DNA of 64,000 nucleotides from Leucoraja ocellata (lineage: Eukaryota): positions 4,526,001 through 4,590,000 of the forward strand of contig JAWMAR010000070.1 of assembly GCA_036785375.1 (NCBI GenBank), given 5' to 3'. The notes below the pieces were generated by a model. The model did not search any database. It saw nothing but the letters and a program-made list of their open reading frames with translations, and was not told the origin of the DNA. Made by a program: the position numbers and the translations under genes. Each line of letters starts with the position of its first letter. Position 1 is the stretch's first letter. This document shows positions 29 through 64,000 of the stretch, in pieces.

Positions 29-67
29 CTAGTCAAGTAAAATATCATGGACGCTTTTAAGTAAAGT
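29..67 (-). CDS. Gene A terminal exon (TLLKSVHDILLD*)
   Basis: Strong polypyrimidine acceptor ttccctcttgtgtttttccag|, phase 0, TAG stop. Confidence 0.65.
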   Translation of the reverse strand, partial: TLLKSVHDILLD

Positions 68-3000
68 CTGGAAAAACACAAGAGGGAAAATAAGGATTGC
101 AAGGATATGCTGATGTGCTTCCATGTACAGAGGTATTTGGAGGTTTGTGTATAGCATGGATACTGGGGAGGGCTGGTGGGGCTGAATGTCCTGTGTAGTC
201 CCCTAAAACCTGATTTTGAAAAGATTTAAACATTCAATGAATCCATATTTCATGTCCTTACCTGGGTTCCATTTGCCCTGTCTCTGCGTTGTGTGTTGCA
301 CTTGGATTCTGCAATATACAATGCTATTGTTGTAAGGACCATGTCAATGTACAGGCCATGTTTCAACATCTATGCGTTACATTCTGATACAGTTACATTC
401 TTATTTCAATGAGCGTCATCTGCTTTGATCTGCTCTTGTTCACGCCTTACATGCTCTTTGTACCCTTCCGTATCTCTAGTTTCCCTCTCCCCTGATTCTC
501 AGTCTGAAGGAGGATCTCCATCCGAAACGTCACCCATTCCTTCTCTCTGGTGATGCTGCCTGTCCCGTTGAATTACTCCGGCATTTTGTGTCTATCTTTT
601 GTGTAAATCAGCATCTACAATTTCTTCCAACAGAAACTATCAGCATCTCACTTCAAACCAACTTCATAGCTGTGATGCAACTTTTCCTCTCCATATTGAG
701 GCTGAGTTCCCGTCATGTGAAATAATAATAATAATTATTATTATTTTTTTAATTTTATTTTTATTAGAAGTACGGTAAATTACAATCCTACACAACACAT
801 ATATCTTAATACATTTTTTGTACCGCTTCATTTTTTTTTGAGCTTTAAGAAAAAGGTAGAAGTAAGGAAAGTAAAGAAAGTGCAAGAGAGTCGTGCAGTG
901 CAAGAGTGTAAGGAAAAGAAAGCCCCTTAGGAAAGAAGTTAGAGAAGGAAGTAAAGTGAGAAAATAAACCCTAGAAAAGAAAGAAAGAGAAAATAGAAAC
1001 AATCGCTCTATTATAACATTAAACTCCGCAGAAAGGAGACTACCAACCAAGTCTGTTTTTGTTATTTTACCTCCCGTTACCAGGTCCTGATTCCGCTTAT
1101 TTATATATTTGTTTTTTTTTAGATTACTATTGCACCTCATACTTGTAATAGGTCCAGAAACATAGACCACGTATTTTGGAATTGGTCTGCTTTACCTGCT
1201 AGGAGGAATCTCATCTCTTCCAGATGTAATGTTTCAAACATATTTGATATCCACATTTTTATTGTTGGTGTCGGCGCATTTTTCCAGAATTTAAGTATAA
1301 GCTTTTTTCCCATTATTAGCCCGTAATTAAATAAATTCTTCTGAAACACGTTTAATTCAGGGTTACCTTCCGATATTCCGAAGATAATCCATTCTGGTTT
1401 TGGTACCAGTTTTATTTTGATCAATTTTGAAAAAATATCAAATATTTCATACCAGAATTTTTGGATTTTTGTACAAAAAACAAAAGAGTGCGCTATGGTA
1501 GCTTCTTGACATAGGCATTTATCACAGATTGGTGAAACATTAGGGAAGATTTTATTTAATTTAGTTTTTGAATAATATAATCTATGTAATGTTTTAAATT
1601 GGATGAGCGTATGTCGTACGTTGATCGAACATTTATGCACCTGTAATAAATGATTATCCCAGGTCTCTTTTGAGATTTTTATAGCTAATTCTTGTTCCCA
1701 ATCTTTTCTAATTCCATCTGTTGTGGGTATTTCTATGTTTAAAATGATATTATATAGGTACGATATTAAATTAGCTGATTCCGCCGTGAAAGAATTAGAT
1801 TGAGCTCCTAGGGCTAACGGAATTAATGGGTGTGGGGAGAAAGCAGAAACGGGGTACTGACTTTGTATGATCAGCCATGATCATTTTCAATGGCGGTGCT
1901 GGCTTGAAGGGTCGAAAGGCTTATTCCTGCACCTATTTTCTATTGTCTATTTTCTATTTTTCTATGTGGAGTTAAGCAGTACTGTCACCCGGATGCAGTG
2001 GCGCTTCCATAGTTTTAACGCTCCATTAGGCTAGACAAGGACACCTAAACTCTGGTTCTTGGTTGACTGGAATAAATTCCAATGACTTCCCAGTTGGTCA
2101 AAAACTATCACATACAGCTTGAAGTTATGAAGAAAAAGTGGAATCTCACCCCTGTGTCTATTCCTTAGATACAATAGTAGGAAAGCGAAGACCACAACGA
2201 GCAGAACCCCGGTGCCACTGAGAACAATTATCAAAATAAGTCTGTTGGAGAGAAAAAGAAACAGTAATTTTCGGAATACAGCGGATTTTTAACTATTGTT
2301 AGAGAAGAAACATATATAATTTCTACGGCTCCTTGCAGAGCCTTGGAATATGGTTAGCCCAGTAAATGCATTTCGGCATTGTTGGGTTGTGGGAAATGCA
2401 AGGCAGGTGGCTTATGATCAGGTTTGGGGTTTGGTTTTGGTTTGTTATTGCCACATGTACAGATGAACCGTGAAACGTTTTGCTTTGCATGTTATGCCAT
2501 CTAATCAGAAAATACATTCATAAATCCAATCAAACCCAACCCGTGTGAATAGATGGAGCGAATTGAAAGATACAGAGTGCCTGGCCAACATTTGTTCTGT
2601 AACACAATGGTTGAACATCTTTAACAAATCCAGAAGAAGACATCCATTATGTTTTCAGGGCATTTAGTGTGCCTGTATGTGGCCACCACAGATGTCACCT
2701 TGAAGAATGCGGGCATTTCATCCATTTACCGTGATCGACATGAAAGCTTTGACCAACCTTTCAGGGTTGCGCTCACAAAGGATATCAAGGGCCAAGCCCT
2801 TAGCCATTCATTCACCAGGAACTTCCCCATCGGTGCCACGCCAGAGCAGGTCAAACAAAACATTGTTGGAGTTTGGCAAATACAGCCTTGGGTGAGGTGA
2901 GTGTGGGGCAGTCATTGTGACTACTGCACAGAACACGACCCGAGAAGAACATGATCTCATTTCCCAACAACATTCATAGCACAGCAGAGTGATACATACT

Positions 3001-6000: not shown

Positions 6001-9000
6001 CCATGCAACTCCCACCCTATCCTCGCCATCCTTCCATCATNNNNNNNNNNNNNNNNNNNNNNNNNNNNNNNNNNNNNNNNNNNNNNNNNNNNNNNNNNNN
6101 NNNNNNNNNNNNNNNNNNNNNNNNNNNNNNNNNNNNNNNNNNNNNNNNNNNNNNNNNNNNNNNNNNNNNNNNNNNNNNNNNNNNNNNNNNNNNNNNNNNN
6201 NNNNNNNNNNNNNNNNNNNNNNNNNNNNNNNNNNNNNNNNNNNNNNNNNNNNNNNNNNNNNNNNNNNNNNNNNNNNNNNNNNNNNNNNNNNNNNNNNNNN
6301 NNNNNNNNNNNNNNNNNNNNNNNNNNNNNNNNNNNNNNNNNNNNNNNNNNNNNNNNNNNNNNNNNNNNNNNNNNNNNNNNNNNNNNNNNNNNNNNNNNNN
6401 NNNNNNNNNNNNNNNNNNNNNNNNNNNNNNNNNNNNNNNNNNNNNNNNNNNNNNNNNNNNNNNNNNNNNNNNNNNNNNNNNNNNNNNNNNNNNNNNNNNN
6501 NNNNNNNNNNNNNNNNNNNNNNNCCCATCTCTCAATTCCAGCTTTCTCCTCCCTTATTCTATCTGCCTGAAGGAGGGTCACGACTCGAGTTGGTTTTGTC
6601 CATTCTCTCCACAGATGCTACCTGACCCGCTAAGTTATTCCAGCACTTATGGTTTTGTTCACGTGTCATACACCTGTCCAATGTTCGGTGGCTCTAGAGA
6701 GAGGCTATAGTTGTGCTTGGATTAAGCGAATTGTTGGGGGGGGGGGGGGGCGGTGGGTGGTCAGTGGTAAGTGGCTGATGGGGGTGGGGGCGCATTGATG
6801 GGACAGAGGGAGAGAGAGAGAGAGAGAGACCGCTGGGTGGGGAGGGAGTGACTGGCCCCTGCCCCAGGAGGACTGAACGCAGTCTGTTGAACTCACGGGA
6901 CTGATTCCCTGTTTATGATTCTTCAGGTATTCAGACCAGACCAATTGTTTCTCACTGATCTGTTCCCGTCGGATTATTAGTTTGAGTCGGAATGCAAACC
7001 TCTGACAGGGTGACATTTCACACAGTTCAGAAGCAGGGGGAATGTGTTGAGCATCCCACTTGAAGTGGGTGGCCGCTCAGTGGGACAGAGCCCGCACTGG
7101 GTGAGAGCAACATGAGTGGGGTTTCCCGACCCCCGCCCGCTCCCCGCAGGTCGCTGCACTGCTGCGGAGCCTCGGGATATCGGTGCTGCCCTGACCCTTC
7201 CCGGAGAAAACGTGGATCAGGCATTTCAGTGGAGACGTCAAGTCAATTGCTGTGAAACGTACCGGTAGATACTTGGAGATAAACGTTAAACAATGGATCG
7301 TAGCCAGATGCAGTAATTCCACAGCTGTACCATCCTGTTTCTCCAGAGCGAAGATCCTCCACAGTCACAGTAAATATTCCTCGTGCCGGGTTATCGGTGA
7401 TTGACGCTCTTCCACTCCGTCCGTGTTGCCCATTTGTTTCCAATAAAACTCTACACTGGCGGGTCCACCCTTGACACCAGTATTTTGTGTGTGAGCGGTA
7501 CTTTGCTTCATAGTGACAATCGATTGTGATCGCTCTTCCCACAACTCCTCTTACATGTTCCTTCCCCCACACCGCACCTGAAACTGAGAGGACAAATCTT
7601 CTGAAAATGAACAGGAGAAATCAGCCGAACATTCGGAATGATGAGGGGTGTGTTGGACAACATTCACCCCCGCACCAACACTGGACCAGATCATCCATCA
7701 CTGAATGGACTTGCCCTAGTTTCAATTGGAAACGTCTCTGCCATTTCCAACCTAGTGGTAGGAAACAACATCTCATATTTCCCGTCGGCAAATTACACCT
7801 CAATGGTATGAATATTGATATCTCTAACTTCAAGTAAACCTTACATCACCCCTCTGTCCATCCCTCCCCACCCAAGTTGCACCAGCTTCTTGTTGAATCT
7901 CATTGTCTGTAACTAGTTCTCACTTACCGCACAGCAATGGCCTGTTTCCTTTACCATTGTTACTTTTTTACATATCTTTCATTCATTTGTTCTATATCTC
8001 TCTAAACAACCGTCTATATCTCTCGTTTCCCTTTCCCCTGCCTCTCAGTCTGTAGTAGGGTCTAGATCTCTAAACGGCACATATTCCTTAGNNNNNNNNN
8101 NNNNNNNNNNNNNNNNNNNNNNNNNNNNNNNNNNNNNNNNNNNNNNNNNNNNNNNNNNNNNNNNNNNNNNNNNNNNNNNNNNNNNNNNNNNNNNNNNNNN
8201 NNNNNNNNNNNNNNNNNNNNNNNNNNNNNNNNNNNNNNNNNNNNNNNNNNNNNNNNNNNNNNNNNNNNNNNNNNNNNNNNNNNNNNNNNNNGTCTATCTT
8301 CCAAACCAACATTGTCTCTTCTGTCCCCTCAGCATTGCGGAGTGTCCTCGTCTGTCGCTCGTCACGCTGCTGGGAGCGGCATCCCGGTCTTAGGTGTCTG
8401 TTGGTGGCTTCCCAGAGGATCTCGCAGTTGTGAATGGAAGGAGACCACAGAGTACAATATTCAGCAAATTCATCACTTCAGCTACCAACTAAATGGCTCG
8501 TTTTAATGACCGAGTGAGAAAATACGTCCAGGAAAAGAAATGGGATTCTGGATAGTGATCCCCTCTCACTCACAATCGGTGTCACAACAGCTTCAGGATT
8601 AAGGCTGGGCCTTGCTGAATTAGACAAAAGCACAACAGAGGCAAAACGAAATGAGAAGTAAATGGTTACTTATTGCGACAGCGCCGTTGACCGACACTCT
8701 ACCCACGAGGATTAGAGAACTAAAAAAATAACGGCTAAATTATAAAACAAAACCTGCCGTGTTGTCTATTTGAGAATTTAAAGCGTAATTTACGTTCTGC
8801 TTTCAGTGAGAACAGAAGTGCAGTAACTAGATCTATGACAAAAGTATAGGGGCGCGTTTGCACTTTGATGTTATTTCTACTTGCGCGGGAGTGTGGCGAC
8901 TTTTCGGGTGATGGTCCTAGGAGGGACTAATTTAGGCAACTAATGAACAGCGCTCGCTCCCCCCTCTCCACCCCACCCCCCTCACCTTCCCTGTGCCCCC

Positions 9001-9679
9001 AGCACCCCCCCCCCCCCCCCCCCCCCCCACCGTGCAATCCCAACTGGATACATCGAAACACAGAAACGCAGAAAATAAGCGCAGGAGTAGGCCATTCGGC
9101 CCTTCGAGCCAGCCAGCACCGCCATGCAATATGATCATGACTGAGCATCTAAAATCACTATCCACGTTCCAGCTTTTTTTTTTAACCATATCCCTTGATT
9201 GCATTAGGCCTTCAAGCTAAATCTAATTCTCTCTTGAAAACAGCCACTGCCTTATGTGACAGAGAATTCCACAGATTCACAGCTCTCTGGGTGAAAATGT
9301 TTTTTTCTGATCTCAGTCCTAAGTGCCATAACGGTGCATATTGCTTCCTAGCAGTACCCCCCCCCCCCCCCCCCCCCCCCCGATCCCCGCACATTACCAG
9401 TTCTACACACCCGCGGGACAATTAGAATCGAACCCGGGTCTTTGGTGATTGTAAAGCAGCAACTCTACCACGGACCCACCGTGCCCTGCCGTAGAACAGT
9501 GTTGATACGAGAATGCCTGTCAATACAGTTCAGTTACATTCGCTGGGTATTTTATACATTTACCCTCCATATATGTCGGCCATCTCTGCTGTGAAAACTA
9601 ACACTGGTTATCAGAAGGCTCAGCTCTATCTCTGTCACTCACCGGGTAGAGAACAAACGATAAGAATTGGAATCCACAT
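29..9679 (-). CDS. Gene A: CD300/pIgR-like (MDIR-type) Ig receptor, 7 exons: 9679-9643 leader, 7583-7263 V, 5648-5340 C2, 3472-3355 stalk, 2241-2150 TM, 308-262 cyt1, 67-29 cyt2; 320 aa
   Basis: All introns are GT-AG, phases chain 1/1/1/2/1/0 and the total is 963 nt ending in TAG. Leader, V, stalk and cyt1 exon lengths (37, 321, 118, 47) equal those of gene B. Confidence 0.85.
262..308 (-). CDS. Gene A cytoplasmic exon 1 (ESKCNTQRRDRANGTQ)
   Basis: 47 nt, phase 1 to 0, same size and similar sequence to gene B 32679-32725. Confidence 0.8.
735..1785 (-). mobile_element. 5'-truncated L1-clade LINE (ORF2 C-terminal zinc knuckle plus 3' UTR and A-rich tail)
   Basis: ORF 1137-1640 has IQFKTLHRLY..CDKC..H..C..KFW (CCHC/zf-RVT region); upstream in-frame WEQELAIKISKETW; T-rich tail on plus strand near 743. 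Confidence 0.85.
2150..2241 (-). CDS. Gene A transmembrane exon (LILIIVLSGTGVLLVVVFAFLLLYLRNRHR), uncharged
   Basis: Hydrophobic span plus basic stop-transfer residues; ccaacag| acceptor and G|GTGAGA donor; phase 2 to 1. Confidence 0.88.
3355..3472 (-). CDS. Gene A Ser/Thr-rich stalk exon (DNAYSCATSTTEKMTS...HYPE)
   Basis: 118 nt, phase 1 to 2, same length and same Y-x-C-x-x-x-T-T start as the gene B stalk. Confidence 0.8.
4388..4683 (+). mobile_element. tRNA-derived SINE (chondrichthyan HE1-like family)
   Basis: GGCGGCACGGTGGCGCAG..GCTGCCTTACA..GACCCGGCTTCGATC A/B-box head; related copies near 14218, 16478, 18515, 35563 and on minus near 12210, 21680, 25620. Confidence 0.75.
4855..5210 (-). 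mobile_element. Rex1/Babar-like LINE 3' fragment
   Basis: TCAAG-repeat tail followed by sequence I recognise as the Rex1-type 3' end; not verified by search. Confidence 0.5.
5340..5648 (-). CDS. Gene A C2/I-set Ig exon
   Basis: EPVSVPVL..SVTVSCRSERGSLPISYNW..QYYCKASN; ttcccacag| acceptor, G|GTAAGT donor. Confidence 0.92.
6041..6523. other. Assembly gap (483 N)
   Basis: N run. Confidence 1.
7263..7583 (-). CDS. Gene A V-set Ig exon (CD300/pIgR type)
   Basis: ITIDCHY..KYWC..QC..SITDNPARGIFTVTVEDL..GWYSC; extra C-C' cysteine pair typical of CD300/pIgR/TREM domains; ctctcag| acceptor and G|GTACGT donor. Confidence 0.95.
8092..8291. other. Assembly gap (200 N)
   Basis: N run. Confidence 1.
9643..9679 (-). 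CDS. Gene A leader exon MWIPILIVCSLP
   Basis: 37-nt ATG...CCCG|GTGAGT exon, homologous to five other leaders in the window. Confidence 0.9.
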
Positions 9680-17489: not shown

Positions 17490-20400
17490 ATGTTGGTGCC
17501 AATTCTTCTCATTTGTTTCTTGCCCGGTGAGTAACGTTCAGAATTGGACAGTCTGATAAATAGTATTAGTTTGCCTGTTTCCGCTGCAGAGATGGTTTAA
17601 AAATGTCTAGACACGTAAAGCTGCAAAATGTTCAGCATACATTGTAATAATATGACTAGTATTGGAATATAGTCACGTAAACTCCCTCCGTCTATAACAT
17701 GGTACCACACAAATCATCACCTATGTATCTGACTCATATTTCACTTGGGCGGCTTACAACCCAACGGCATGATTATTTATTTCTCTAACTTCAAGTAACC
17801 CTTGCATTCCCTCTCTCTGTGTCAATCCCCACCTTAGTACTCTTGTTAACTTCACCTCTTTCATTCATTCGGCATCACCTCATCCCCAACCAACAATAGA
17901 CCATTGTGGACTCCACATGATTTATTGATGCAGGCTCTGTGTTGCTCTGTACTTTCCCATGCCTCTAGTTTGCCCCTCTCTGACTCGCGGTCTGGTGAAG
18001 GGTCTCGACCCAAAATGTCTCCTATTCCAATTTCTCCAAAGATGATGCCTGATCCGCTGAGTTACTCCAGCATTTTCTGTCTTTCTCAGACCATGGTTGA
18101 TTGTGAAATAAACAAAATGGGAGTTTATTTTCTGAATGTTCGTCTAAGTAATATAATCAAAGTGTAGTGGCGCCCATTCCATTTGTAAACACTAACAGTT
18201 CTCTCGTTCTAATTTAAAGCAGTAGTGAAATAACATTGTCTCCAATTATACTACACCGATTGTTTAAAGTGAAATGTATGAAAAAATGAAATACAGCAGG
18301 GGCAGGTAAGTGGCAGGTGCACCTGGAGAGGGCGAGGGGTGATGGATGGAAGATGAGGAGGGGGCGGGGGCAGGGGGGATTTGAGACGATGCCAGTGTGT
18401 GGTATGGGAAAAAAGACAAGGGGATAAACGAGGTTCAAGTGAATTAGATGGAGATGTCTGGTAGTGAGTAGAATACAGGGCAACATTACCTCTGACACTG
18501 CCGCACTCCCTCTGTGGGCGGCACGTTGGCGCTGGGGTAGAGTTGCGGCCTCACAGCACCAGAGACCTGGGTTCGATCCGGACGACGAGCGCTGTCTGTG
18601 CGGAGTTTGTCGGTTCTCCCTGTGTGTGTGGGGGCTTTCTCCTGGTGCTCTCCGGTATTCTCCCGCACCCCCAAAACGTGCAGGTTTCTGTAAAAATGAA
18701 TATTGGCCCCCGTGTGTGTCAGATAGTGCTAGTGTATGGGTTTCGCTAGTTGGCGTAGAGTAGGTGGGACGAAGGGCCTGTTTCCACGCTGTATCTCTAA
18801 AGTAAAGTCTAAAGTCAGTACATCAAGGTCATGCATAGAGAGGGAGAGCGGATCGCGGGATTACCGAGGAGGCTTTGTCTCCCCTCCACCCCACCCCACC
18901 ACACCGCACCATTACCAGCCCCACACCACCCCACACCCCAATCCCAACTCTCTTCCAGCTATCCGCACCCAACCCCAAATAGTCTGAAGAAAGGCCCTGG
19001 TCAGAAACCTCTCTTGCCCATTCCCTTCTCTGTCGAGTTACACCGGGACTTTGTGTTTGGCTCAAGTGTAAGTGAATGTCCAGATACTGGTTGGACCATT
19101 TGGACCTTCGTTGGTTAGGGTAAGAGGGGGTGGGCCAACAATGTGTTCAGTAGATGTGTCCTCTACATTCTCCTCTCAGTTTCATGAGCACTGTGGGCAA
19201 AGAAACTGGTAAGAGGAGTTTTGGGAAAATCGCTCACAATCGACTGTCACTATGGCGCGGTGCACCGCTCACGCGCAAAGTATTGGTGCGGTGGAAAGAG
19301 TCGCCAGTGTACAGTTTTAGTGGAAACAAATGGACAACACGGGCGGAGTTGAAGAGTGTCAATCACAGATAACCTGGCACGAGAAATATTTACTGTGACT
19401 GTGGAGGATCTTCACTCCAGCGATACAGGATGGCACAACTGTGGAATTAATACATCTAGCAAGGATCCATTGTATAACGTTTATCTCCAAGTATCTGACG
19501 GTACGTTTATCAGCAATTGACGACGTCTCCACTGAAATGCCTGATCCATGTTTTCTCCAGGAAGGGTCAGGGCAGCACCGATATCCCGAGGCTCCGCAGC
19601 AGTGCAGAGACCTGCGGGGAGCCCATCATACCAGTGCCGACTATCAACCACTCATTTACACTCGTCCATCTTTTATGTCTTTCATTATTTCCCCCACATT
19701 CTGATCACCTCCCCCAAAACATACAAGTCGGGGCAGAGCCCTCTAGTGGTGACTGTAAGGTCAGTCTTACCCAGACACAACATATTTCCCCCTCCTTGTA
19801 AATAAAGGCGATCATTTAAGTCCAGTTATCCAATCAAATATATGTTTTCCCCCGAATGAGTCGGGGGGGGGGGGGGGGGGGGGGGTCATCTTGACTAGTT
19901 TTGACCTAGCCATTTTGCCTTGAACAAAATGCACTTACAGGCTCGGAACAACCAGAGTCGATTGTGAGTTATTTAACCGTCAAACACAAGAACATGTGAC
20001 ATTTCGTATTCCTATTCTGAACCTATTGTAAGTATCTTATTGAATAAATAATCATCATAAGCATTAGCATTGCCCACTCTCGTAGTGCACTTCTCAAAAG
20101 TTCAATAATGTTTCTCAAGCAAGATTTTCTCTTTTAAAGTTCCCGTCTATTATTCATTATAATTCTTATTTTCTTCATATCGTCCCGTTTTCTCAATCAG
20201 TCAGGATTCTATCCCTGAAGATCAATCGCAGGCTTAATTGCTGGTTCATATCTGCTTCAGTAGATATGGGCAGTGGGAAGGAGAAGTGGGATAGCAACTC
20301 TTAGTTGGGATAATGCAATTCGATTGGAAATTGGAAGAGCCAGCAGATAGTTGAGAGATATTGTGCAAATTCGGGCAACTAGGGCTAGCCCAGAATGTCA

Positions 20401-21548: not shown

Positions 21549-21585
21549 ATGTGGGTTCCGATTCTTCTAATTTGTTCCTTGCCGG
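21549..21585 (+). CDS. Gene B leader exon MWVPILLICSLP
   Basis: 37 nt, G|GTGAGT donor; PU.1-like ACTTCCTC at about 21444. Confidence 0.9.
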
Positions 21586-47602: not shown

Positions 47603-47670
47603 GTAAATGTTTCAAAGATAAACCGTCTCGTTTTCTCCCAGTGATTCTGTATCTCTTGCCCTTTGCCCAG

Positions 47671-48380: not shown

Positions 48381-48428
48381 AGACGCGATGAGCTAGAACC
48401 TCGCCATTCGACCCACGAATTACAATGA
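48381..48428 (+). CDS. Gene C terminal exon (RRDELEPRHSTHELQ*), short tail without Tyr
   Basis: tcttttgcag| acceptor, phase 0; AATAAA at about 48568 and 48621. Confidence 0.65.
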   Translation, partial: RRDELEPRHSTHELQ

Positions 48429-52248: not shown

Positions 52249-55200
52249 ATGTGGATTCCCATTCTTCTCATCTCCTCGCTACCCGGTGAGTGAAAGCCAG
52301 ATCTTGATATTCCAATGATCAATGTTAGTTGGGGTCCCGTGCACCCTTTCCACAGCAGAGATGGTTAAGTGAGTGTAGACATGTAATGGGGCAGATATAT
52401 TGTAACCCGTCCGTCCTCTGTCCTCAGTCAGGGCGTTGTAAAGGCGGTGAATGTCTAAACACGGGTCCGGCCCAGTGTCGGTTGAGAGATGAATGTTGGC
52501 AGCGCAGCCGGCGGCACCGCCAATGAAATAGCAAAGTGGGGTCTTTCTGTAGGGTGAGAGGCCGGGCACCGCCTGGGATTGGGAAGTGAACCCAAATTGT
52601 ACTGATCCGGGGACAGAACACTGACACAACTGGTTCAATAACAGCACTCCCTGCACTTCAGACCGGAGACATTGGCCGTGAAGCAATATGACACATCATG
52701 GAACGCTCTAAGTTTTCTTTCATGTTATCTTCAAAATGTATCTATTTTCATTAAGCTGTTCATTTTCTCTCCATCTGAAAGTTTCTCCCCTCAGTTTCAG
52801 GTGCAATGTGGGGAGAGAGGGAGGTAAGAGGAGTTGTGGGAAGAGCGATCACAATCGATTGTCACTATGCAGCAGGGTACCGCTCATACACAAAATACTG
52901 GTGCCGTGGGTGGACTATCCAATGTACAGTTTTAGTGGATACAAATGGACAACACGGACGGAGTGGAAGAGTGTCAATCACAGATAACCCGGCACGAGGA
53001 ATATTTACTGTGACTGTGGAGGATCTTCAGTCTGGAGATACAGGATGGTACAGATGTGGAATTGATACAGGTGGCACGGATCCATTCTTTACCGTACATC
53101 TCCAAGTATCTGACGGTACGTTTCGCAGCGATTTTCTTGAAGTCTCCACTGAAATGCCTGATCCATGTTTTCACCGGGAAGTGTCACATCAAGTGGGATG
53201 CTCAGTACATTTCCCTGCCTCTGAACTGTAAAAACGTCACCCTGTCAGAGGTTTGCATTCCCACTCAAACTAATGATCCGAGAGGTACAAATCAGCGAGA
53301 AACAAGTGTTGCTGGTGGTCTGAACACCCGGAGAATCATAAACAGGGAATGTGTCCCCAGAACTCAACAGACTGCGTTCAGTGCTCCCGGGGCAGAGCAG
53401 CCCGCTCCCCGCCCCCACCTCAGGGATCTGCCACTTTCTCCCCCACCGCGCGCGCTCTCTCTCTCTCTCCATCTGCCCGCCAATGCGCCCACACCCCCCT
53501 GCAGCCACTGTCCACCCACCGCCCGGCAGCCAGCCAGCCTCTCCACCCGGACATTTCCCTGGTGGGAAGGAGAATAATTCATCTTTCGCCCCATCAGCCG
53601 TCGCACACAGTATATAATCCTCCAACATTTTCGCCACTTCCATCGGAATCCCACAACTAGCCACATATTTCCATCTCCACCGCTTTCTCCTCTCCGAAGA
53701 GACCGTTCCCTCCGCAACTCCCTGGTCAACTCGTCCTTTCCCACTCAAACCACCCCGTCCCCAGGTACCTACAACTGCAGCAGATACAACACCTGGCCCT
53801 ATACCTCCTCTGTTCACTCCAACAGTCTTTTCGGGTGAAGCAGAGGTTCACTTGAATCTTCTCTAAACTCTTCTACTATATCCGCTGTTCCAGGTGTGAA
53901 CAAGATGGGAGACCAAGCGCAGACTCGGCGATCGTTTCGCTGAACAACTCCGATCGTTCTACCTCGGCCTACGCTAATTCCCGTTTGCTAAACACTAACT
54001 CCCCTTCCCATTCCCAAACTTACCTTTCTGTCCTGGACCTCCTCCTCTGTCAGAGTGAGGCCAAACGCAAATTGGAGGAACAGCGCCTCATATTTCGCTT
54101 GGGCAGCTTACAACCCAGCGGTTTAAATATTGATTTCTCAAACTTCAAGTAACCGTTGTTGTACCCCTGTCTCAATCCCGCCCTAGTTCTCCATTTAGAT
54201 TCACTGTCCTCTTCATTATATTTTACAGAGTGTATGCCTCGTTGTCACCTTCCCTTCGTCTGACAATGATCCATTCTGCATTTTCGTTTAACATTGTCAA
54301 CTTTTAGCACTTGTTTTCCATCCTTACTCTTCCATTACTCTTCTGTCACCCTAGACTTGACTCTCAGGCTGCAGAAGGGTCTCGACCCGATTCTTCACCC
54401 ATTCCTTCTCTCGAGAGATGCTGCCTGCTCCGCTATGATACTCCAGCCTAGTGTGTCTAGCTGAAAGGGATCGTTATTAGTTTTGGCCTTTAATTTCCAA
54501 GGCTATGAATAGGGATTTTGGTACGCTGGTCTTCATCAGTGAGAACATTCAGAACATAATCTGAGATAATATGCTTCAGACGTGCAGATGTTGAGTCCAC
54601 ACTTTGGGAATTGTGTTCAGCTTTAGTCCGTCAGCTCCAAGAAAAGTGCCGTTGAGGTGGACAGCGTGCAGAAAGGTTTTAGGGCGACGCTGCCTGGACA
54701 GGATGGGATTGACGCAGGGAGCGATTGGACAAACTCAGACTTCATTCCTTGGTGTGGAAATGATTGAGCGAGGAACTTATAGAAATGTATCAATCACGAG
54801 AAGCATGTTCATTTTCCCACGATGTGTGGGATGAGAAAGTGGAGGACAGACGTAATGGGAACTAGTTAAAGAGGGGAGAATAGTAAGGTGGACAGTTGCG
54901 TAGATTGGGGTCATTGCGAGTGATAAGGGAGAAACGTGGACATATGGAAATGGCCCAGAAAGACATGTTGGTCGGCATGAATGAGCTGTTGTGATGGGCA
55001 TATTTCGGTTCTCTATAACTCTAACCTTCTCCAGTTTCTGGGCTTCGCACACTCACAGAGATGTAGATGAGCCCGTGAGATATCAACCGGACGGTTCAGG
55101 CTGAGATAAAGGGCTGCTGAGATTCAGCATGTGTTTGGTTTTTAACTGTTCATACAGGTGACTGAATGTTTGCTCCATTCCCACAGAACCGGCGTCTGCT

Positions 55201-58200
55201 CCTGTGCTCAGATATCTGTCATCAGCAAATGCCTCACGTCTCGGAGGCTCAGTGTCAGTGTCGTGTGAGTCTGTCAGTGGATCCCTTCCCATCAATTACG
55301 CATGGTGTGAGAGGAACGAGCGTGGGTGTTCAACGATCTTGTCTGACAATCAACTGGACCTGAGTTGTGAAATCCTCGGAGGTCAACATCGTCAATATTA
55401 CTGCACAGCCTCAAATAATCATGGGATAAAATACAGTGAAATACTCAACGTGAAAGTCTTCAAAGGAGCAGGAACGTGCAGTTATGTGACAGAAATGAAC
55501 AATACAGGTGAGTGTTATTTTCCCGTGGGAATATTGTTTCACAATTCCTCTCGTGTTCTTGTAGCTGCTGCTTTTCACCTTGTGGTGATGGTCGTGGGTT
55601 TCTAGGTATTTGCAGGCGGCATCATTGCAGCCACCGTGAGCTAATGGTGTAAAATGTGGGAGTTTGTTTGGGGGACTGGCAAATAATTGCCTGTTGCTTT
55701 CACCTGGGAGGTGTTGAGCTTCAAAAGGAGATAGAGACCGGCACTTATCACAACGGGTTGAGAGCATTCCATCAAATGTCTGCCTTCTGCCTTAAAAATG
55801 ATTTTCTGGCTGCAATTAAAGATCTCACAGTCACTTTGAGACAGAGAAAGCACCAAATGCATTCTGTTTGGATCCATCATCATTTAAAACCAAGGATGCA
55901 GAATTTCATTATCATGTTCATGATTTTAACTCTGTTAATTTGTGAGAGTCACTGCAATTCCAGTAATCTCACAAAATTTAGGTGTATTCTACTTGGCCGT
56001 CACTCCATCATGTATAACCCTTAAATTTGTCAAAGAGAATTTTGGAATGAAAATCCCGGTAGGTGTGGAGACGCTCACAGTCCAGAAGAGAGTGTGAATG
56101 GTTTACATCAGCGAGACTGAGTGCAGCCAAGGCCGGTGCATCTTAAACTATTTCAGTGTCATTCACCCTTGAGTCTTTATCACAAAATTTCATCAGTTTG
56201 AGAAGCACTGGCCTAGGCCACAGTTTCGCTGAACACTTGTGCTTGGTTTGTCATGACCCAGAATCGCACTTGATAGACACCCCATCCTCAACCTCCCCCA
56301 CTGATGCAGAGCAGCAGCAGTTTGCACCATCTGCACGATGCACTGCAGCAACTCACCAAGACTCCCTAGACAGCGCCTTCCAATTGCAACAGGCTCCGTG
56401 TTCAATGCATCATTCTTCACCATTCACACCCACATTGGCTGGGAAGCGCTTTGGAACGACCTGTGCAGATGGTGAGGGACGGTGTACAGTATCTGTCTCT
56501 CATCGCAATCTAGGTGGAATTGAGCACAGTTAAGAAAATGATTGGGCGGAATCCCCTGTACACATTGATGTATACTATAATGTATATGCTTGTGAAAGGC
56601 TAATTTTGCTCTTAAATTTATGATAGATTTTACATTCAGTTTCAGGTGCACTGTGGGCTGAGAGCGAAGTAAGAGGGGTTGTGGGAAGAGCGATCACAAT
56701 CGATTGTCACTATGCAGCAGTGTACCGCTCACACACAAAATACTGGTGCCGTGAGACAAGTCACCAGTGTACACATGTAGTGGAAACAAATGGGAAACAT
56801 GGACAGAGCGGAAGAGTGTCAATCACAGATAACCTGGAACGAGGAATATTTACTGTGACTGTGGAGATTCTTCACTCTGGAGATACAGGATGGTACAGAT
56901 GTGGAATTACTACATCTGTCGAACCAACATTTAAAGTACATCTCCAAGTATCTGAAGGTAGGTTTCTCAATGAGTGACTTTATGTCTCCACTTGGGCATC
57001 CGCACAAACCATTTGTTAGTGGGAGTCTGGTGCACAGTTCTGGTCCCCGCTTTATAAAACAAAAGATGTGGAAGCTTTGGAGAGGTTACAGAAATTGTCA
57101 CCGGGATATTGAGTTATAGTTTACAAATGCAACATGGAAACGAATCCTTTGGCCCACCGACTCCACACCGACTTGAGTTCACCGGTCACACTAGTTCTAT
57201 GTTGTTCCACTTTCCCATTCGCTGGCTACACACAATTCTACAATACCGGCATTCACGCACCCCAATAGTGCAACACTAGATGGGTGACCAAGCGTAGACC
57301 CGGAGAAACATGACATGAGTCCCCAGAACTCAACAGACTGCGTTCGGTCCTCCCAGAGCAGGCCAGCCCATTCCCCGCCCACACCTCAGAGATCACGCCC
57401 CCCCCCCCCCCCCCACCCCGATCCCCACCTCGCTCTCTCTCTCTCACCCTCCCTCTGACCCGTCAACTCGTCCTTTCCCACCCGAACCACCCGTGCCCAG
57501 GTACCTTCCCCGACAACTGCAGCGGATGCAACACCTGTCTCAATACCTCCTCCGTCCATTCCGTCCAAGGACTCCAACAGTCTTTTCAGGTGAGGCAGAG
57601 GTTCATTGCATCTCCTCTATCCCCATCTATTCTATCCGCTGTTCCAGCTGTGAACAAGTAGATACAGTAGATGGGAGACCAAGCGCAGACTCGGCGATCG
57701 TTTCGCTGAACAACTCCGCTCAGTCTGCCTCGGCCTACGCTAATTCCGGTTTGCTAAACACTTTAACCCCCCTCCCATTCCCAAATTCACCTTTCTGTCC
57801 TGGACCTCCTCCACTGTTAGAGTGAAGCCAAACGCAAATTGGAGGAACAGCGCCTCATATTTCGCTTAGGCAGCTTACAACCCAGCGGTTTAAATATTGA
57901 CTTCTCAACCTTCAAAGTAACCGTTGTTGTACCCCTGTCTCAATCCCGCCCTAGTTCTCCATTTACATTCACTGTCCTCTTCATTATATTTTACTGATTG
58001 TATGCCTCGTTGTCACCTTCCCTTCGTCTGACAATGATCCATTTTGCATTTCCGTTTAACATTGTCAACTTTTAGCACTTGTTTTCACTCCTTACTCTTC
58101 CACTACTATTCTGTCACCCTAGACTTGACTCTCAGGCTGAAGAAGGGTCTCGACCCGATTCTTCACCCATTCCTTCTCTCGAGAGATGCTGCCTGCCCTG

Positions 58201-61200
58201 CAGAGTTACTCCAGCATTTTGTGTCTATCTTAAAGGGATCGTAATTAATTTTCGCCTTTAAATTCCAAGGCATTGAATATGGTTTTTGGTACGCTGGTCT
58301 TCATCAGTGAGAACATTCAGAACATAATTTGAGATAATCTGCTTCAGACGTGCAGATGTTGAGTCCACACTTTGGGAATATGTTCAGCTTTAGTCCCTCA
58401 GCTCCAAGAAAAGTGCCGTTGAGGTGGACAGCGTGCAGAAAGGATTTAAGGCGACGGTGCGTGGACAGGATGGGATTGACGCAGGGAGCGATTGGACAAA
58501 CAGACTTCATTCCTTGGTGTGGAAATGATTGAGCGAGGAACTTATAGAAATGTATCAATCACGAGAAGCATGTTCATTTTCCCACGATGTGTGGGATGAG
58601 AAAGTGGAGGACAGAGGTAATGGGAACTATTTAAAGAGGGGGGAATAGTAAGGTGTCATTGACTGTAATGGCATGTTTTGTACAGATGAGTGGCCGAAGC
58701 TGAACACAATTCGCCCAAGTTCAACCTCAACAACATATGTACAACTGAAACATAACATCCCAACTTCTGTTCTGAGGGACAACATTCGCTACACATTGGG
58801 TGATATTTATATGGAACCTGATGCCAGAGGAAGTTGTTTAGGCAGTCAGAATAATAGCATTTAAAATACATTTTAGGACAGTTGCGTAGATTAGGATAAT
58901 TGCGAATGATAAGGGAGAAACGTGGACATATAGCTATGGCCTAGAAAGACATGTTGGTCGGCATGAATGAGCTGTTGTGATGGGCATCTTTCGGTTCTCT
59001 ATAACTCTAAAATTCTCCAGTTTCTGGGCTTCGCACACTCACAGAGATGTAGATGCGCCGGTGACATATCAACCGGACGGTTCGGGCTGAGATAAAGGGC
59101 TGCTGAGATTTAGCATGTGTTTGGTTTTTAACTGTTCATACAGGTGACTTAATGTTTGCTCCATTCCCACAGAACCCGTGTCTGCTCCTGTGCTCAGATA
59201 TCTGTCACCAGCAAATGCCTCACGTCTCGGAGGCTCAGTGTCAGTGTCGTGTGAGTCTGTCAGTGGATCCCTTCCCATCAATTATGCATGGTGTGAGCAG
59301 AACGAGCGTGGGTGTTCAACGATCTTGTCTGGCAATCAACTGAATCTGAGTTGTGGAATCCTCGGAGGTCAACACCGTCAATATTACTGCAGAGCCTCAA
59401 ATAATCGTGGGACAAAACCCAGTGAAATACTCAAAGTGAAAGTCTTCAAAGGAGCAGCAAGGTGCAGTTATGTGACAGAAATGAACAATGCTGGTGAGTG
59501 TTATTTTCCCGTGGGAATACTGTTTCACAATTCCTCTCGTGTTCTTGTAGCTGCTGCTTTTCACCTTGTGGTGATGGTCGTGGGTTTCTAGGTATTTGAA
59601 GGCGGCATCATTGCAACCACCGTGAGCTCATGGTGTAAAATGTGGGAGTTTGTTTGGGGGACTGGCAAATAATTGCCTGTTGCTTTCACCTGGGAGTTGT
59701 TGTGCTTCAAAAGTAGATAGAGACCGGCACTTATCACAACGGGTTGAGAGCATTCCATCAAATGTCTGCCTTCTGCCTTAAAATGATTTTCTGGCAGCCG
59801 TTAAAGATCTCACAATCACTTTGAGACAGAGAAAGCAACAAATGTCACTGGAATTCCAGTAATCTCACAAAATTTAGGTGGATTCTACTCGGCCGTCACT
59901 CCATCATGTGTAACCCTTACATTTGTCAAAGAGAATTTTGGAATGACACTCCCGGTAGGTGTGGAGACGCTCACACTCCAGAAGAGAGTGTGAATGGTTT
60001 ACATCAGCGAGACCAAGTGCAGCCAAGGCCGGTACATCTTAACTATTTCAGTGTCATTCACCCTTGAGTCTTTATCACAAAATTTAATCAGTTTAAGAAG
60101 CACTGGCCTAGGCCACAGTTTCACTGAACACTTGTGCTTGGTCTGTCATGACCCAGAATCGCACTTGATAGACACCCCATCCTCAACCTCCCCCGCTAAT
60201 GCAGACCAGCAGCAGTTTGCACCATCTGCACGATGCTCTGCAGCAACTCACCAAGACTCCCTAGACAGCGCCTTCCAATTGCAACAGGCTCCGTGTTCAA
60301 TGCATCATTCTTCACCATTCACACCCACATTGGCTGGGAAGCGCTTTGGAAGCAGATGGTGAGGGACGGTGTACAGTATCTGTCTCTCATCGCAATCTAG
60401 GTGGAATTCAACACAGTTAAGAAAATGATTGGGCGGACTCCCCTGTACACATTGATGTATACTATAATGTATATGCTTGTGAAAGGCTAATATTGCTCTT
60501 CAATATATGAAAGATGTTTCATTCAGTTTCAGGTGCACTATGGGCTGAGAGCGAAGTAAGAGGGGTTGTGGGAAGAGCGATCACAATCGATTGTCACTAT
60601 GCAGCAGTGTACCGCTCACACACAAAATACTGGTGCCCTGGGACAAGTCGCCAGTGTACACATGTAGGTGAAACAAATGGGAAACATGGACAGAGCGGAA
60701 GAGTGTCAATCACAGATAACCTGGAACAAGGAATATTTACTGTGACTGTGGAGGATCTTCACTCTGGAGATACAGGATGGTACAGATGTGGAATTACTGC
60801 ACCTGGCGAAGCAACATTTCAAGTACATCTCCAAGTATCTGAAGGTAGGTTTCTCAATGAGTGACTTTATGTCTCCACTTTGGCATCCGCACAAACCATT
60901 TGTTAGATGGGAGTCTGGTGCACAGTTCTGGTCCCCGCTTTATAAAACAAAAGATGTGGAAGCTTTGGAGAGGGTGCAGAAAATGTCACTGGGATATTTA
61001 GTTGTAGTTTACAAATGCAACATGGAAACGAATCCTTTGGCCCACCGAGTCCTCACCGACTTGAGATCACCGGTCACACTAGTTCTATGTTGTTCCACTT
61101 TCCCATTCGCTGGCTACACACAATTCTACAATACCGGCATTCACGCACCTCAATAGTGCAACACTAGATGGGTGACCAAGCGTAGACCCGGAGAAACATG

Positions 61201-64000
61201 ACATGAGTCCCCAGAACTCAACAGACTGCGTTCGGTCCTCCCAGAGCAGGCCAGCCCATTCCCCGCCCACACCTCAGAGATCACGCCACCCCCCCCCCCC
61301 CCCCCCACCCCGATCCCCACCTCGCTCTCTCTCTCTCACCCTCCCTCTGACCCGTCAACTCGTCCTTTCCCACCCGAACCACCCGTGCCCAGGTACCTTC
61401 CCCGACAACTGCAGCGGATGCAACACCTGTCCCTATACCTCCTCCGTCCATTCCGTCCAAGGACTCCAACAGTCTTTTCAGGTGAGGCAGAGGTTCACTT
61501 GCATCTCCTCTAGCCTCATCTATTCTATCCGCTGTTCCAGGTGTGAACAAGTAGATACAGTAGATGGGAGACCAAGCGCAGACTCGGCGATCGTTTCGCT
61601 GAACAACTCCGCTCAGTCTGCCACGGCCTACGCTAATTCCGGTTTGCTAAACACTTTAACCCCCCTCCCATTCCCAAATTCACCTTTCTGTCCTGGACCT
61701 CCTCCACTGTTAGAGTGAGGCCAAACGCAAATTGGAGGAACAGCGCCTCATATTTCGCTTGGGTAGCTTATAACCCAGCCGTTTAAATATTGACTTCTCA
61801 AACTTCAAGTAACCGTTGTTGTACCCCTGTCTCAATCCCGCCCTAGTTCTCCATTTAGATTCACTGTCCTCTTCATTATATGTTACAGATTGTATGCCTC
61901 GTTGTCACCTTCCCTTCGTCTGACAATGATCCATTCTGCATTTCCGTTTAACATTGTCAACTTTTAGCACTTGTTTTCACTCCTTATTTCTTCCATGACT
62001 ATTCTGTCACCCTAGACTTGACTCTCAGGCTGAAGAAGGGTCTCGACCCGATTCTACCCCCATTCCTTCTCTCGAGAGATGCTGCCTGCCCTGCAGAGTT
62101 ACTCCAGCATTTTGTGTCTATCTTAAAGGGATCGTAATTAATTTTCGCCTTTAAATTCCAAGGCATTGAACAGGGTTTTTGGTACGCTGGTCTTCATCAG
62201 TGAGAACATTCAGAACATAATTTGAGATATTCTGCTTCAGACGTGCAGATGTTGAGTCCACGCTTTGGGAATTATGTTCAGCTTTAGTCCCTCAGTTCCA
62301 AGAAAAGTGCCGTTGAGGTGGACAGCGTGCAGAAAGGTTTTAGGGCGACGCTGCCTGGACAGGATGTGATTGACGCAGGGAGCGATTGGACAAACTCAGA
62401 CTTCATTCCTTGGTGTGGAAATGATTGAGCGAGGAACTTATAGAAATATATCAATCACGAGAAGCATGTTCATTTTCCCACGATGTGTGGGATGAGGAAG
62501 TGGAGGACAGAGGTAATGGGAACTATTTAAAGAGGGGGGAATAGTAAGGTGTCACTTACTGTAAATGGCATGTAAGGTGTCACTTACTGTAATGGCATGT
62601 TTCGTACAGATGAGTGGCCGAAGCTGAACACAATTCGCCCAAGTTCGACCTCAACAACATATGTACAACTGAAACATAACATCCCAACTTCTGTTCTGAG
62701 GGACAACATTGTCCACGCATTGGGTGATATTTATATGGAACCTGCTGCCAGAGGAAGTTGTTGAGGCAGTTAGAATATTAGCAGTTAAAATACATTTTGG
62801 ACAGTTGCGTAGATTGGGATCATTGCGAGTGATGAGGGAGAAACGTGGACATATGGCTATGGACTAGAAAGACATGTTGGTCGGCATGAATGAGCTGTTG
62901 TGATGGGCATATTTCGGTTCTCTATAACTCTAACCTTCTTCGGTTTCTGGGCTTCGCACACTCACAGAGATGTAGATGAGCCGGTGAGATATCAACCGGA
63001 CGGTTCGGGCTGAGATAAAGGGCTGCTGAGATTTAGCATGTGTTTGGTTTTTAACTGTTCATACAGGTGACTGAATGTTTGCTCCATTCCCACAGAACCC
63101 GTGTCTGCTCCTGTGCTCAGATATCTGTCACCAGCAAATGCCTCACGTCTCGGAGGCTCAGTGTCAGTGTCCTGTGCGTCTGTCAGTGGATCCCTTCCTA
63201 TCCGTTACACATGGTGTGAGAAGAACGAGCATGGGTGGTCAACGATCTTGTATGGCAATCAACTGGATCTGAGTTGTGAAATCCTCGCCGGCCAACACCG
63301 TCAATATTACTGCACAGCCTCAAATAATCATGGGACAAAATCCAGTGAAATACTCAACGTGAAAGTCTTCAAACGAGAAGGAACGTGCATTTATGTGACA
63401 GAAATGAACAATGCAGGTGAGTGTTAACTCATTCACCCTTGGGTGAACCATTCACCAGTTTAAGAAGCACTGGCCTAGGCCACAGTTTCGCTGAACACTT
63501 GTGCTTGGTCTGTCATGACCCAGAATCCCGCTTGAAAGACACCCCATTTTCAACCTCCCCCGCTGATGCAGAGCAGCAGCAGTTTACACCATCTGCACGA
63601 TGCACTGCAGCAACTCACCAAGACTCCCTAGACAGCGCCTTCCAATTGCAACAGGCTCCGTGTCCAATGCATCATTCTTCACCATTCACACCCACATTGG
63701 CTGGGAAGCGCTTTGGAACGACCTGTACAGGTGGTAAGGGACAGTGTACAGTAACTGTCTCTCATCGCAATCTAGGTGGAATTCAACACAGCTAAGAAAA
63801 TGATTGGGCGGAGTCCCTTGTATACTAGAATGTGTATGTTTGTGAAAGGCTAATTTTGCTCTTCAATTTATCAAAGATGCTTCCTTTAGTTTCAGGTGCA
63901 CTATGGGCTGAGAGCGAAGTAAGAGGGGTTGTGGGAAGAGCGATCACAATCGATTTTCACTATGCAGCAGTGTACCGCTCACACACAAAATACTGGTGCC
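52249..64000 (+). CDS. Gene D (partial): multi-domain MDIR-type receptor; leader 52249-52285, V1 52795-53115, C2 55187-55507, V2 56640-56957, C2 59173-59493, V3 60527-60844, C2 63096-63416, V4 63890 to window end
   Basis: All complete exons are open, phase 1/1 and GT-AG; no further leader, stalk or TM exon seen between modules. Confidence 0.85.
52795..53115 (+). CDS. Gene D V1 exon
   Basis: 321 nt; DCHY..KYWC..QC..WYRC. Confidence 0.94.
55187..55507 (+). CDS. Gene D C2 exon 1 (internal type)
   Basis: 321 nt; SRLGGSVSVSCES..WCERNERGC..YYC. Confidence 0.93.
56640..56957 (+). CDS. Gene D V2 exon
   Basis: 318 nt, intact motifs. Confidence 0.93.
59173..59493 (+). CDS. Gene D C2 exon 2 (internal type)
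   Basis: 321 nt, intact. Confidence 0.93.
60527..60844 (+). CDS. Gene D V3 exon
   Basis: 318 nt, intact motifs. Confidence 0.93.
63096..63416 (+). CDS. Gene D C2 exon 3 (internal type)
   Basis: 321 nt, open; one loop Cys replaced by Trp. Confidence 0.92.
63890..64000 (+). CDS. Gene D V4 exon (truncated by window end; B-strand Cys replaced by Phe)
   Basis: tttag|TTTCAGGTGCACTATGG..ATC GAT TTT CAC TAT..AAA TAC TGG TGC. Confidence 0.85.

What the first reader, a model, noticed from the sequence alone, without database searches (positions are those of the whole stretch)
29..64000. Paired activating, inhibitory and neutral Ig-receptor cluster built from exchangeable V-C2 modules
Seen: six leader exons, nine CD300/pIgR-type V exons, seven C2 exons and two distinct membrane back ends. 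One back end is an uncharged TM plus two cytoplasmic exons (genes A, B). The other is two mini-exons, an Arg-bearing TM WKVGRW and a short Tyr-free tail (pseudogene, gene C). Established: skate MDIRs and mammalian CD300/TREM/LILR families use this paired design, with charged-TM members coupling to ITAM adaptors. Inference: this is an MDIR locus in active birth-and-death evolution, where near-identical ectodomains are wired to different outputs.
Basis: partly seen in the sequence, partly recalled or inferred. Interest (0 to 1): 0.75.

Follow-up and report, generated by a model that had tools for sequence, protein, structure and literature searches.

The report
Skate MDIR immune receptor gene cluster
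This is part of a known skate family of immune-cell surface receptor genes (MDIRs) built by repeated exon duplication; here one gene is likely inhibitory, one has lost its inhibitory tail, and the two likely activating copies are broken as assembled, so it is an ordinary member of the family with a few informative details.

Summary
The exon inventory is right: 6 leaders, 9 V exons and 7 C2 exons. The locus is a skate MDIR cluster; window genes match Raja eglanteria MDIR2, 3 and 5 at 72-85% aa.

The 'paired' picture is only partly visible in the window. No intact in-frame ITIM exon lies inside it: gene A is the MDIR2-type gene, and its ITIM exon is probably off the left edge. Gene B is intact, but its ITIM exon stops after 11 codons, a truncation shared with Rhinoraja, so it is an old tail-less receptor. 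Both Arg-TM copies are broken as assembled.

Near-identical modules (91-97% nt) link C to D, whose back end is outside the window. A, B and C are only 50-65% alike in C2. In other sharks and rays, back-end type is not significantly clustered on the C2 tree, which fits module exchange. The TM Arg is invariant (44 of 44 proteins) and also occurs in sturgeon. Adaptor coupling is inferred, not tested. Known family; modest interest.

The parts
9643..9679 (-). Gene A leader exon (37 nt, phase 1)
7263..7583 (-). Gene A V exon, intact
   Evidence: 99/105 aa to L. erinacea P0064
5340..5648 (-). Gene A C2 exon, intact
   Evidence: 93/102 aa to P0064
3355..3472 (-). Gene A stalk/hinge exon (phase 1 to 2)
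2150..2241 (-). Gene A uncharged TM exon (phase 2 to 1)
262..308 (-). Gene A first cytoplasmic exon; the ITIM exon of the orthologue is not in the window and is inferred to lie beyond the left edge
   Evidence: spliced A is 91.6% to P0064 and 72.5% to MDIR2 over 308 aa
15277..15313 (+). Orphan leader exon; no V exon before the next leader
17490..17526 (+). Pseudogene leader exon
19180..19500 (+). Pseudogene V exon with two in-frame stops
20592..20682 (+). Pseudogene Arg-bearing TM exon; no hinge or tail exon found
21549..21585 (+). Gene B leader exon
24420..24740 (+). Gene B V exon, intact; the most divergent V (70-77% nt to the others)
   Evidence: Pfam V-set E 1e-14; 104/106 aa to L. erinacea P0021
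29216..29539 (+). Gene B C2 exon, intact
   Evidence: 105/107 aa to P0021
30742..30859 (+). Gene B stalk exon (phase 1 to 2)
32077..32201 (+). Gene B uncharged TM exon (phase 2 to 1)
32679..32725 (+). Gene B first cytoplasmic exon, with a TYY motif also present in Rhinoraja
33245..33280 (+). Gene B last coding exon: 11 codons, then TGA
   Evidence: matches the end of Rhinoraja P0156, 0 of 200 shuffles as good
33281..33441 (+). Decayed remainder of gene B's former ITIM exon; the ITIM-like hexapeptide at 33334-33351 is out of frame and followed by a stop
   Evidence: 8.2 bits, iE 0.11: weak alone, but at the homologous place; contig of run X1 identical over 32885-34167
38127..38163 (+). Gene C leader exon
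39187..39506 (+). Gene C V1 exon, 320 nt (1-nt deletion, frameshift); 95.6% nt to V of gene D
42353..42672 (+). Gene C first C2 exon, 320 nt (1-nt deletion, frameshift); 94.1% nt to C2 of gene D
43785..44090 (+). Gene C V2 exon, intact
44647..44883 (-). Orphan, inverted ITIM-type last exon with two stops, inside a gene C intron
   Evidence: 55.9 bits, iE 2e-16; 56/80 aa to the Rhinoraja P0008 tail; AG acceptor kept
45592..45912 (+). Gene C second C2 exon, intact
   Evidence: 103/106 aa to the second half of P0021
47671..47761 (+). Gene C Arg-bearing TM exon (starts in phase 2; out of frame if joined directly to C2)
48381..48428 (+). Gene C short Tyr-free tail exon; TM plus tail 84% identical to MDIR5 over 45 aa
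52249..52285 (+). Gene D leader exon
52795..64000 (+). Gene D tandem V-C2 array: V 52795-53115, 56640-56957, 60527-60844, 63890-edge; C2 55187-55507, 59173-59493, 63096-63416. Open frame of 689 aa; back end outside the window
   Evidence: unit duplication 55948-59503 vs 59844-63426 at 94.8%

Best explanation
The window is a piece of the skate MDIR receptor cluster, whose exon phases would let V-C2 units be duplicated or deleted in frame and likely let whole ectodomains move between an ITIM back end and an Arg-TM back end. Shown: leaders, V and C2 exons are all phase 1, stalk exons run phase 1 to 2, and both TM types start in phase 2; V-C2 units have been duplicated with their introns. Inferred mechanism: unequal crossing-over makes and breaks genes. 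Gene A would signal inhibition through ITIMs (SHP-1/2 or SHIP by analogy) encoded just outside the window. Gene B lost its ITIMs by a stop older than the split from Rhinoraja and would act as a non-inhibiting binder or tuner. The MDIR5-type TM would pair its N-terminal Arg with the Asp pair of an FcR-gamma or CD3-zeta-type ITAM dimer. Both Arg-TM copies in this assembly are dead or, for gene C, would at best give a short or secreted product.
For: Family: V exon hits MDIR2/3/5 at 75-76% and L. erinacea at up to 90% (accessions ABC86796.1, ABC86797.1, ABC86800.1). Spliced A vs MDIR2 72.5%; C V2-C2 vs MDIR3 84.5% and MDIR5 82.0%; C TM plus tail vs MDIR5 84.4%. Phases. Duplication. Exchange: on a tree of 74 membrane-proximal C2 domains (43 ITIM, 31 Arg-TM) the label needs 21 changes against a shuffled mean of about 24 (55 and 68 of 500 shuffles as low; at least 9 changes forced by starred branches); best cross-type identity is at least 82% in 9 of 11 species and at least 92% in 4. 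Arg: with an anchor that contains no Arg, 44 of 44 matching proteins (of 134 examined, 12 species) have Arg at that column, against Lys in 22 of 44 three residues earlier; a similar TM occurs in two sturgeon pIgR-like proteins. CD89, NKp30 and NKp46 use an Arg in the top part of the TM to bind gamma/zeta dimers (PMC13107469, passages). Gene B: same 11-codon ending in Rhinoraja P0156; ectodomain 98% identical to L. erinacea against 91-97% for single domains of A and C.
Against: No in-frame ITIM exon and no intact Arg-TM gene lie in the window. A, B and C ectodomains are not near-identical. Most homologues are automatic gene models, which can be chimeric in tandem arrays and would scramble tree labels; the one named MDIR pair (MDIR3 vs MDIR5; cDNA clones by my recall) is 82% identical. 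The tree has 107 columns and 36 of 71 forks open, and in its nearest-neighbour count 45 of 74 rows had a neighbour of their own type. A 2014 screen found no FcR-gamma chain in shark genomes (PMC4016189, passages). In one catfish receptor the TM charge was dispensable for adaptor binding (PMC4810170, passage). By my recall the original MDIR paper classed MDIR5 as lacking signalling motifs. The Rhinoraja match for B is a single partial gene model.
Confidence: 0.72

Rival explanations
1. Gene C is a working activating receptor. The two 1-nt deletions are assembly errors or are bypassed by skipping V1 and C2-1, and a 19-nt mini-exon (47584-47602) restores the TM frame.
For: Each deletion can be read as a two-base run shortened to one, a common consensus error (my reading of the alignments and of P0011). 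The matching L. erinacea exons are intact in model P0021. Skipping both exons keeps the frame, and the 19-nt candidate has a strong donor and gives an open frame to the MDIR5-like tail. Its downstream intron aligns with the pseudogene's. TM and tail are intact.
Against: 13 of the 15 complete Ig exons have in-frame lengths, and both short ones fall in this one gene. The candidate matches no homologue hinge. The L. erinacea model of the same gene also lacks a hinge and reads the TM exon out of frame.
Confidence: 0.25
2. Hinge-less MDIR5-type genes make a secreted decoy: C2 splices straight to the TM exon in a shifted frame and ends after a short Cys-containing tail.
For: The direct splice in the window gives this ending. 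Three database models end the same way: P0021 and P0054 (L. erinacea) and P0031 (Amblyraja). Soluble relatives exist in carp (SITR, PMC3031540).
Against: All three are automatic models that may have missed a small exon. A stop upstream of a last intron is a likely decay target (general knowledge). An intact TM and tail frame would not be expected to persist if never used.
Confidence: 0.15
3. The WKVGRW-type receptors do not use an ITAM adaptor. The Arg is only an interface anchor, so they are neutral binders or transport receptors of the pIgR kind.
For: The Arg sits at the very start of the best hydrophobic 19-mer. The V domain is pIgR/CD300-like. No shark FcR-gamma was found in 2014. MDIR5 was called motif-less (recalled, paper not seen).
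Against: The Arg is invariant on the predicted outer side, where basic residues are normally under-represented. It goes with a short, mostly Tyr-free tail and alternates with ITIM tails on similar ectodomains.
Confidence: 0.2

Closest known systems
Raja (Rostroraja) eglanteria MDIR2 (ABC86796.1)
   Same: Gene A has the same L-V-C2-stalk-TM-tail order and is 72.5% identical over 308 aa.
   Different: The ITIM exon of A is not in the window.
R. eglanteria MDIR5 (ABC86800.1)
   Same: Gene C has L-V-C2-V-C2, the WKVGRW TM and the same short tail (84% over 45 aa).
   Different: Gene C is frameshifted in two exons as assembled, lacks the hinge exon, and carries an inverted ITIM-exon remnant in an intron.
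R. eglanteria MDIR3 (ABC86797.1) and L. erinacea P0011/P0029
   Same: Tandem V-C2 ectodomains like those of C and D (C V2-C2: 84.5% to MDIR3, 90-92% to P0011/P0029).
   Different: These end in ITIMs. C ends in the Arg TM, and D's end is unseen.
L. erinacea LOC129708990 (XP_055511094.1) and Rhinoraja LOC144605516 (XP_078277014.1)
   Same: Orthologues of gene B: 97.6% over 328 aa, and the same truncated tail in Rhinoraja.
   Different: The Leucoraja model fuses B with the next gene; the Rhinoraja model lacks the Ig domains. Neither carries a functional name.
Mammalian CD300 / pIgR / TREM
   Same: V domain type: best single-domain solved relatives are CD300f (E 5e-23) and CD300a (E 9e-20); pIgR scores highest overall through several domains. 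Paired design.
   Different: MDIRs add C2 domains in tandem V-C2 units. Activating CD300 and TREM members mostly use a central Lys or other charge with DAP12 (recalled); here the charge is an N-terminal Arg.
CD89 (Fc-alpha-RI), NKp46, NKp30
   Same: Arg near the top of the TM that binds gamma/zeta ITAM dimers: the model for how the WKVGRW TM would work.
   Different: Analogy only; orthology is not claimed and was not tested.

Membership tests
MDIR (modular domain immune-type receptors) | CD300/pIgR-like V (I-set) domains closely similar to named MDIRs | tested here: met
   75-76% aa to MDIR2/3/5; Pfam V-set; PDB CD300/pIgR
MDIR (modular domain immune-type receptors) | Modular ectodomain of variable numbers of V and C2-type domains | tested here: met
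   A and B have V-C2, C has (V-C2)x2, D has at least (V-C2)x3-V; all phase 1. The C2 exons score just under the Pfam Ig cut-offs, so 'C2' is by likeness to MDIR.
MDIR (modular domain immune-type receptors) | Multigene cluster in a cartilaginous fish | tested here: met
   Five genes or pseudogenes plus orphan exons in 64 kb; best hits are skates
MDIR inhibitory type (MDIR2/3) | In-frame cytoplasmic ITIM | tested here: inconclusive
   None in frame in the window. A's exon is inferred off-window; B's and the orphan's are broken
MDIR5 type | WKVGRW TM and short Tyr-free tail | tested here: met
   gene C is broken upstream as assembled
MDIR1 and MDIR4 types | Sequence match to these named members | not tested
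   Neither protein appeared in three homologue searches, so whether B is MDIR4-like is open
Paired activating/inhibitory receptor family | Near-identical ectodomains on opposite signalling ends | tested here: inconclusive
   Not met among A, B and C in the window (50-65% aa in C2); met in relatives (at least 92% in 4 of 11 species), mostly from gene models
Paired activating/inhibitory receptor family | Charged TM residue couples to an ITAM adaptor | not testable with these tools
   Arg invariant in 44 of 44; no skate adaptor sequence was at hand and no assay was run
Paired activating/inhibitory receptor family | Expression as spliced mRNA in leukocytes | tested here: inconclusive
   The read lay was swamped by repeats and listed no exon junction
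True pIgR (secretory component) | Only V-type domains, and Ig transport | tested here: not met
   C2-type exons alternate with V exons; transport was not testable. The database name 'pIgR-like' reflects V-domain likeness

The most novel reading that the evidence does not exclude
The MDIR5-type Arg TM is the real activating class of the family, kept from sharks and rays to sturgeon and signalling through a gamma/zeta ITAM dimer. Gene B is a third, selected class: an inhibitory receptor whose ITIM exon was cut off before two skate families split and whose ectodomain is now more conserved than those of its fast-turning neighbours, acting as a decoy or signalling through its new TYY motif.
Probability: 0.3. 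Interest if true: 0.55.

Novelty: new member of a known kind. Interest (0 to 1): 0.3.

Why it matters
MDIRs are the cartilaginous-fish counterpart of the CD300/pIgR/TREM receptors, yet my 10 library searches found them named in one paper (PMC3031540). The locus shows the exon-phase design that would make back ends interchangeable, and a dated example of an inhibitory receptor turned tail-less. It also offers a testable claim: that the N-terminal TM Arg coupling known from CD89 and NKp46 was already used in the ancestor of jawed vertebrates. None of this overturns current views; paired receptor clusters in birth-and-death evolution are the norm in vertebrates.

Tried and rejected
No whole genome is held, so the flanks holding A's last exon and D's back end could not be read.

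The original MDIR paper (Cannon et al. 2006, recalled) was not held under two recalled ids; its classing of MDIR1-5 is from memory. Ten library searches found one paper naming MDIRs and none on shark FcR-gamma with my terms; subscription papers are not covered.

Run search: no RNA holder listed. Laying one contig set and three RNA runs on 32070-48700 was swamped by repeats: bins without repeats had RNA depth of 0 to about 4, none of the 15 joints shown (4486 hidden) was an exon junction, and none of the 12 indels shown (53 hidden) was at gene C's frameshifts. This says nothing either way. The X1 contig that matches B's tail may be the window's own sample.

ESM Atlas on the MDIR5 TM region gave only 0.81 (TREM-like transcript cluster), a chance-level lead.

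The Arg count (41 of 41) was circular because the pattern held RW; it was redone. The first tree (25 changes vs about 26.5 shuffled) included non-proximal domains and fused models and was redone. There, 14 rows were dropped (11 with a V next to the TM, 2 without C2, 1 fused), 4 duplicates were collapsed, and 42 of 134 proteins could not be classed. The orphan-exon alignment was in the wrong frame and was redone. One search timed out.

A cryptic acceptor at about 33287 could put B's ITIM remnant in frame if the first cytoplasmic exon were skipped (my reading); I found no support and set it aside. Earlier-findings look-ups were empty. No complex prediction was run: no skate adaptor sequence was available.
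Full report
What is there. Using window exons as queries, tblastn finds nine V exons and seven C2 exons, and blastn finds six leader exons. All leaders are 37 nt and phase 1; 13 of the 15 complete Ig exons have lengths divisible by three. They group into gene A (minus strand, 9679 to at least 262), an orphan leader (15277), a pseudogene (17490-20682), gene B (21549-33280), gene C (38127-48428) and gene D (52249 to the edge).

Family. The V exon at 52800-53117 retrieves 116 proteins among 234 candidates. The top ones are all from skates and rays, including Raja eglanteria MDIR2, 3 and 5 at 75-76% and Leucoraja erinacea at up to 90%; mammalian CD300 follow at about 40%. Spliced in a script, A is 91.6% identical to L. 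erinacea P0064 and 72.5% to MDIR2; B is 97.6% to the first 328 aa of P0021; C's TM plus tail is 84.4% to MDIR5; D is 81.8% to P0011. Solved relatives of the V domain are pIgR and CD300f/a. PMC3031540 (passages) describes MDIRs as multigene activating/inhibitory receptors of skate and zebrafish resembling CD300, TREM and pIgR. I could not see the original MDIR paper.

Gene A. It is open through leader, V, C2, stalk, TM and one cytoplasmic exon. The orthologue continues with a long ITIM exon, which has no match in the window. Only 261 nt remain to the edge, and the same intron in B is 519 nt, so the exon probably lies outside. The 13-codon frame at 67-29, where the finding starts, has a fair acceptor but no homologue support (170 of 200 shuffles as good). 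A is inhibitory by orthology only.

Gene B. It is intact and ends 11 codons into its last exon. Downstream, in another frame, lies an ITIM-like hexapeptide followed by a stop; this stretch scores weakly against a profile of homologue tails at the expected place (8.2 bits, iE 0.11). A Rhinoraja model ends at the same point with nearly the same residues (0 of 200 shuffles as good for either tail exon), so the loss is shared by two skate lineages, on the evidence of one partial model. A contig from run X1 matches 32885-34167 with no difference, though it may be the same sample. B's V and C2 are 104/106 and 105/107 identical to L. erinacea, against 99/105 and 93/102 for A and 95/101 and 103/106 for C. 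'Neutral' is therefore well supported as a sequence class; its function is inferred.

Gene C and the pseudogene. Both carry the WKVGRW TM. The pseudogene's V has two stops and no tail exon was found. In C, V1 and the first C2 each lack one base relative to their 94-96% identical copies in D, and the full splice stops after 58 codons. Both losses can be read as shortened two-base runs, so assembly error is possible; the read lay did not resolve this. The TM exon starts in phase 2, so a phase 1-to-2 hinge is needed. The hinge of homologues is absent from the 1.75-kb intron, and the best mini-exon candidates match nothing. The 19-nt one does restore the frame, and its downstream intron aligns with the pseudogene's. 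Without a hinge the TM exon is read out of frame, as in three database models. An ITIM-type last exon, 56/80 identical to a Rhinoraja tail but with two stops, lies inverted in C's intron at 44883-44647, a trace of rearrangement.

Modules and exchange. V-C2 units were duplicated with their introns: 55948-59503 matches 59844-63426 at 94.8%, and blocks from 37030 to 44401 match 51170-57275 at 87-94%. These near-identical modules link C to D and D to itself. Among genes whose back ends are visible, C2 domains are only 50-65% identical and V exons 73-85% at DNA level. It has support in relatives. Of 134 shark and ray proteins, 74 distinct membrane-proximal C2 domains could be classed; the back-end label needs 21 changes against about 24 for shuffles (55 and 68 of 500 as low), at least 9 forced by strong branches, and best cross-type identity is 82-99% in 9 of 11 species. 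The caveats are chimeric gene models, a short alignment, and a mild same-type excess among nearest neighbours (45 of 74). C's own ectodomain is 90-92% identical to ITIM-bearing L. erinacea proteins. Both TM exon types start in phase 2, so a swap at the hinge would stay in frame (the swap itself is inference).

The Arg TM. With an anchor that contains no Arg, 44 proteins from 12 species match and all have Arg at this column; the Lys three residues earlier is kept in 22. Among the 150 best hits of a full-library search, a similar TM with RW occurs in six new proteins, two of them from sturgeons. A 2026 review (PMC13107469, passages) states that CD89 binds the FcR-gamma dimer through an Arg near the top of its TM, that NKp30 and NKp46 are assumed to do likewise with zeta or gamma, and that receptors assembling with DxxxT/S motifs otherwise use a central Lys. 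A gamma/zeta partner is therefore the better guess than DAP12. Against this, a 2014 screen found no FcR-gamma in sharks (PMC4016189, passages), and a catfish receptor kept its adaptor without its TM charge (PMC4810170, passage). Coupling is untested.

Verdict. This is a real MDIR cluster in turnover and a new member of a known kind. The three-way pairing is partly inferred from orthologues, and no intact activating or ITIM-complete gene lies in the window as assembled. The two details worth following are the old ITIM loss in conserved gene B and the invariant TM Arg shared with sturgeon. Interest 0.3.

Noticed in passing
window 26467-28717 (-): Retrotransposon copy in gene B's V-C2 intron: a 495-aa frame with Pfam RVT_1 (E 5e-07) overlapping a second frame with a GIY-YIG-like motif (no Pfam hit), so it is split by a frameshift. 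Penelope-like by recall. Decayed 3' pieces recur at 39963-40548, 53579-54139, 57462-57906 and 61354-61799 and were duplicated with the V-C2 units.
   Followed up: partly
window 31968-32035 (-): U6 snRNA fragment (Rfam RF00026, 73 bits), about 40 nt upstream of gene B's TM exon acceptor; likely a retro-copy.
   Followed up: partly
window 32679-32725 (+): Gene B's first cytoplasmic exon carries a TYY-R-D motif found only in the Rhinoraja orthologue among the C-terminal 120 aa of 140 homologues scanned; not a canonical ITIM or ITAM.
   Followed up: partly
window 7139-7595 (-), 19168-19622 (+), 24416-25289 (+), 39166-39928 (+), 52774-53544 (+): The intron stretch after first-position V exons is conserved at 76-86% across genes on both strands, well beyond the splice donor; shared ancestry, gene conversion or a regulatory element.
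   Followed up: no
window 1140-1880 (-): 247-aa open frame with no Pfam hit; resembles the C-terminal part of a LINE ORF2 by recall.
   Followed up: partly
window 6041-6523 and 8092-8291: Two N runs (483 and 200 bases), both inside gene A introns.
   Followed up: no
window 38115-38127 and 52237-52249 (+): The leaders of C and D have an in-frame upstream ATG four codons earlier, as in MDIR3 and P0011.
   Followed up: no
P0082 (Rhinoraja longicauda): A database model joins a TRIM69-like RING/B-box part to an MDIR V-C2-TM end, which suggests a TRIM gene next to the cluster or a fused model.
   Followed up: no
P0247, P0177: Multi-V pIgR-like proteins of L. erinacea and Hemitrygon, only 31-39% identical to the MDIR query, carry a related RW-type TM and are recorded with the same longest-contig lengths as the MDIR hits of those species, suggesting an older branch in or near the same cluster.
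   Followed up: partly
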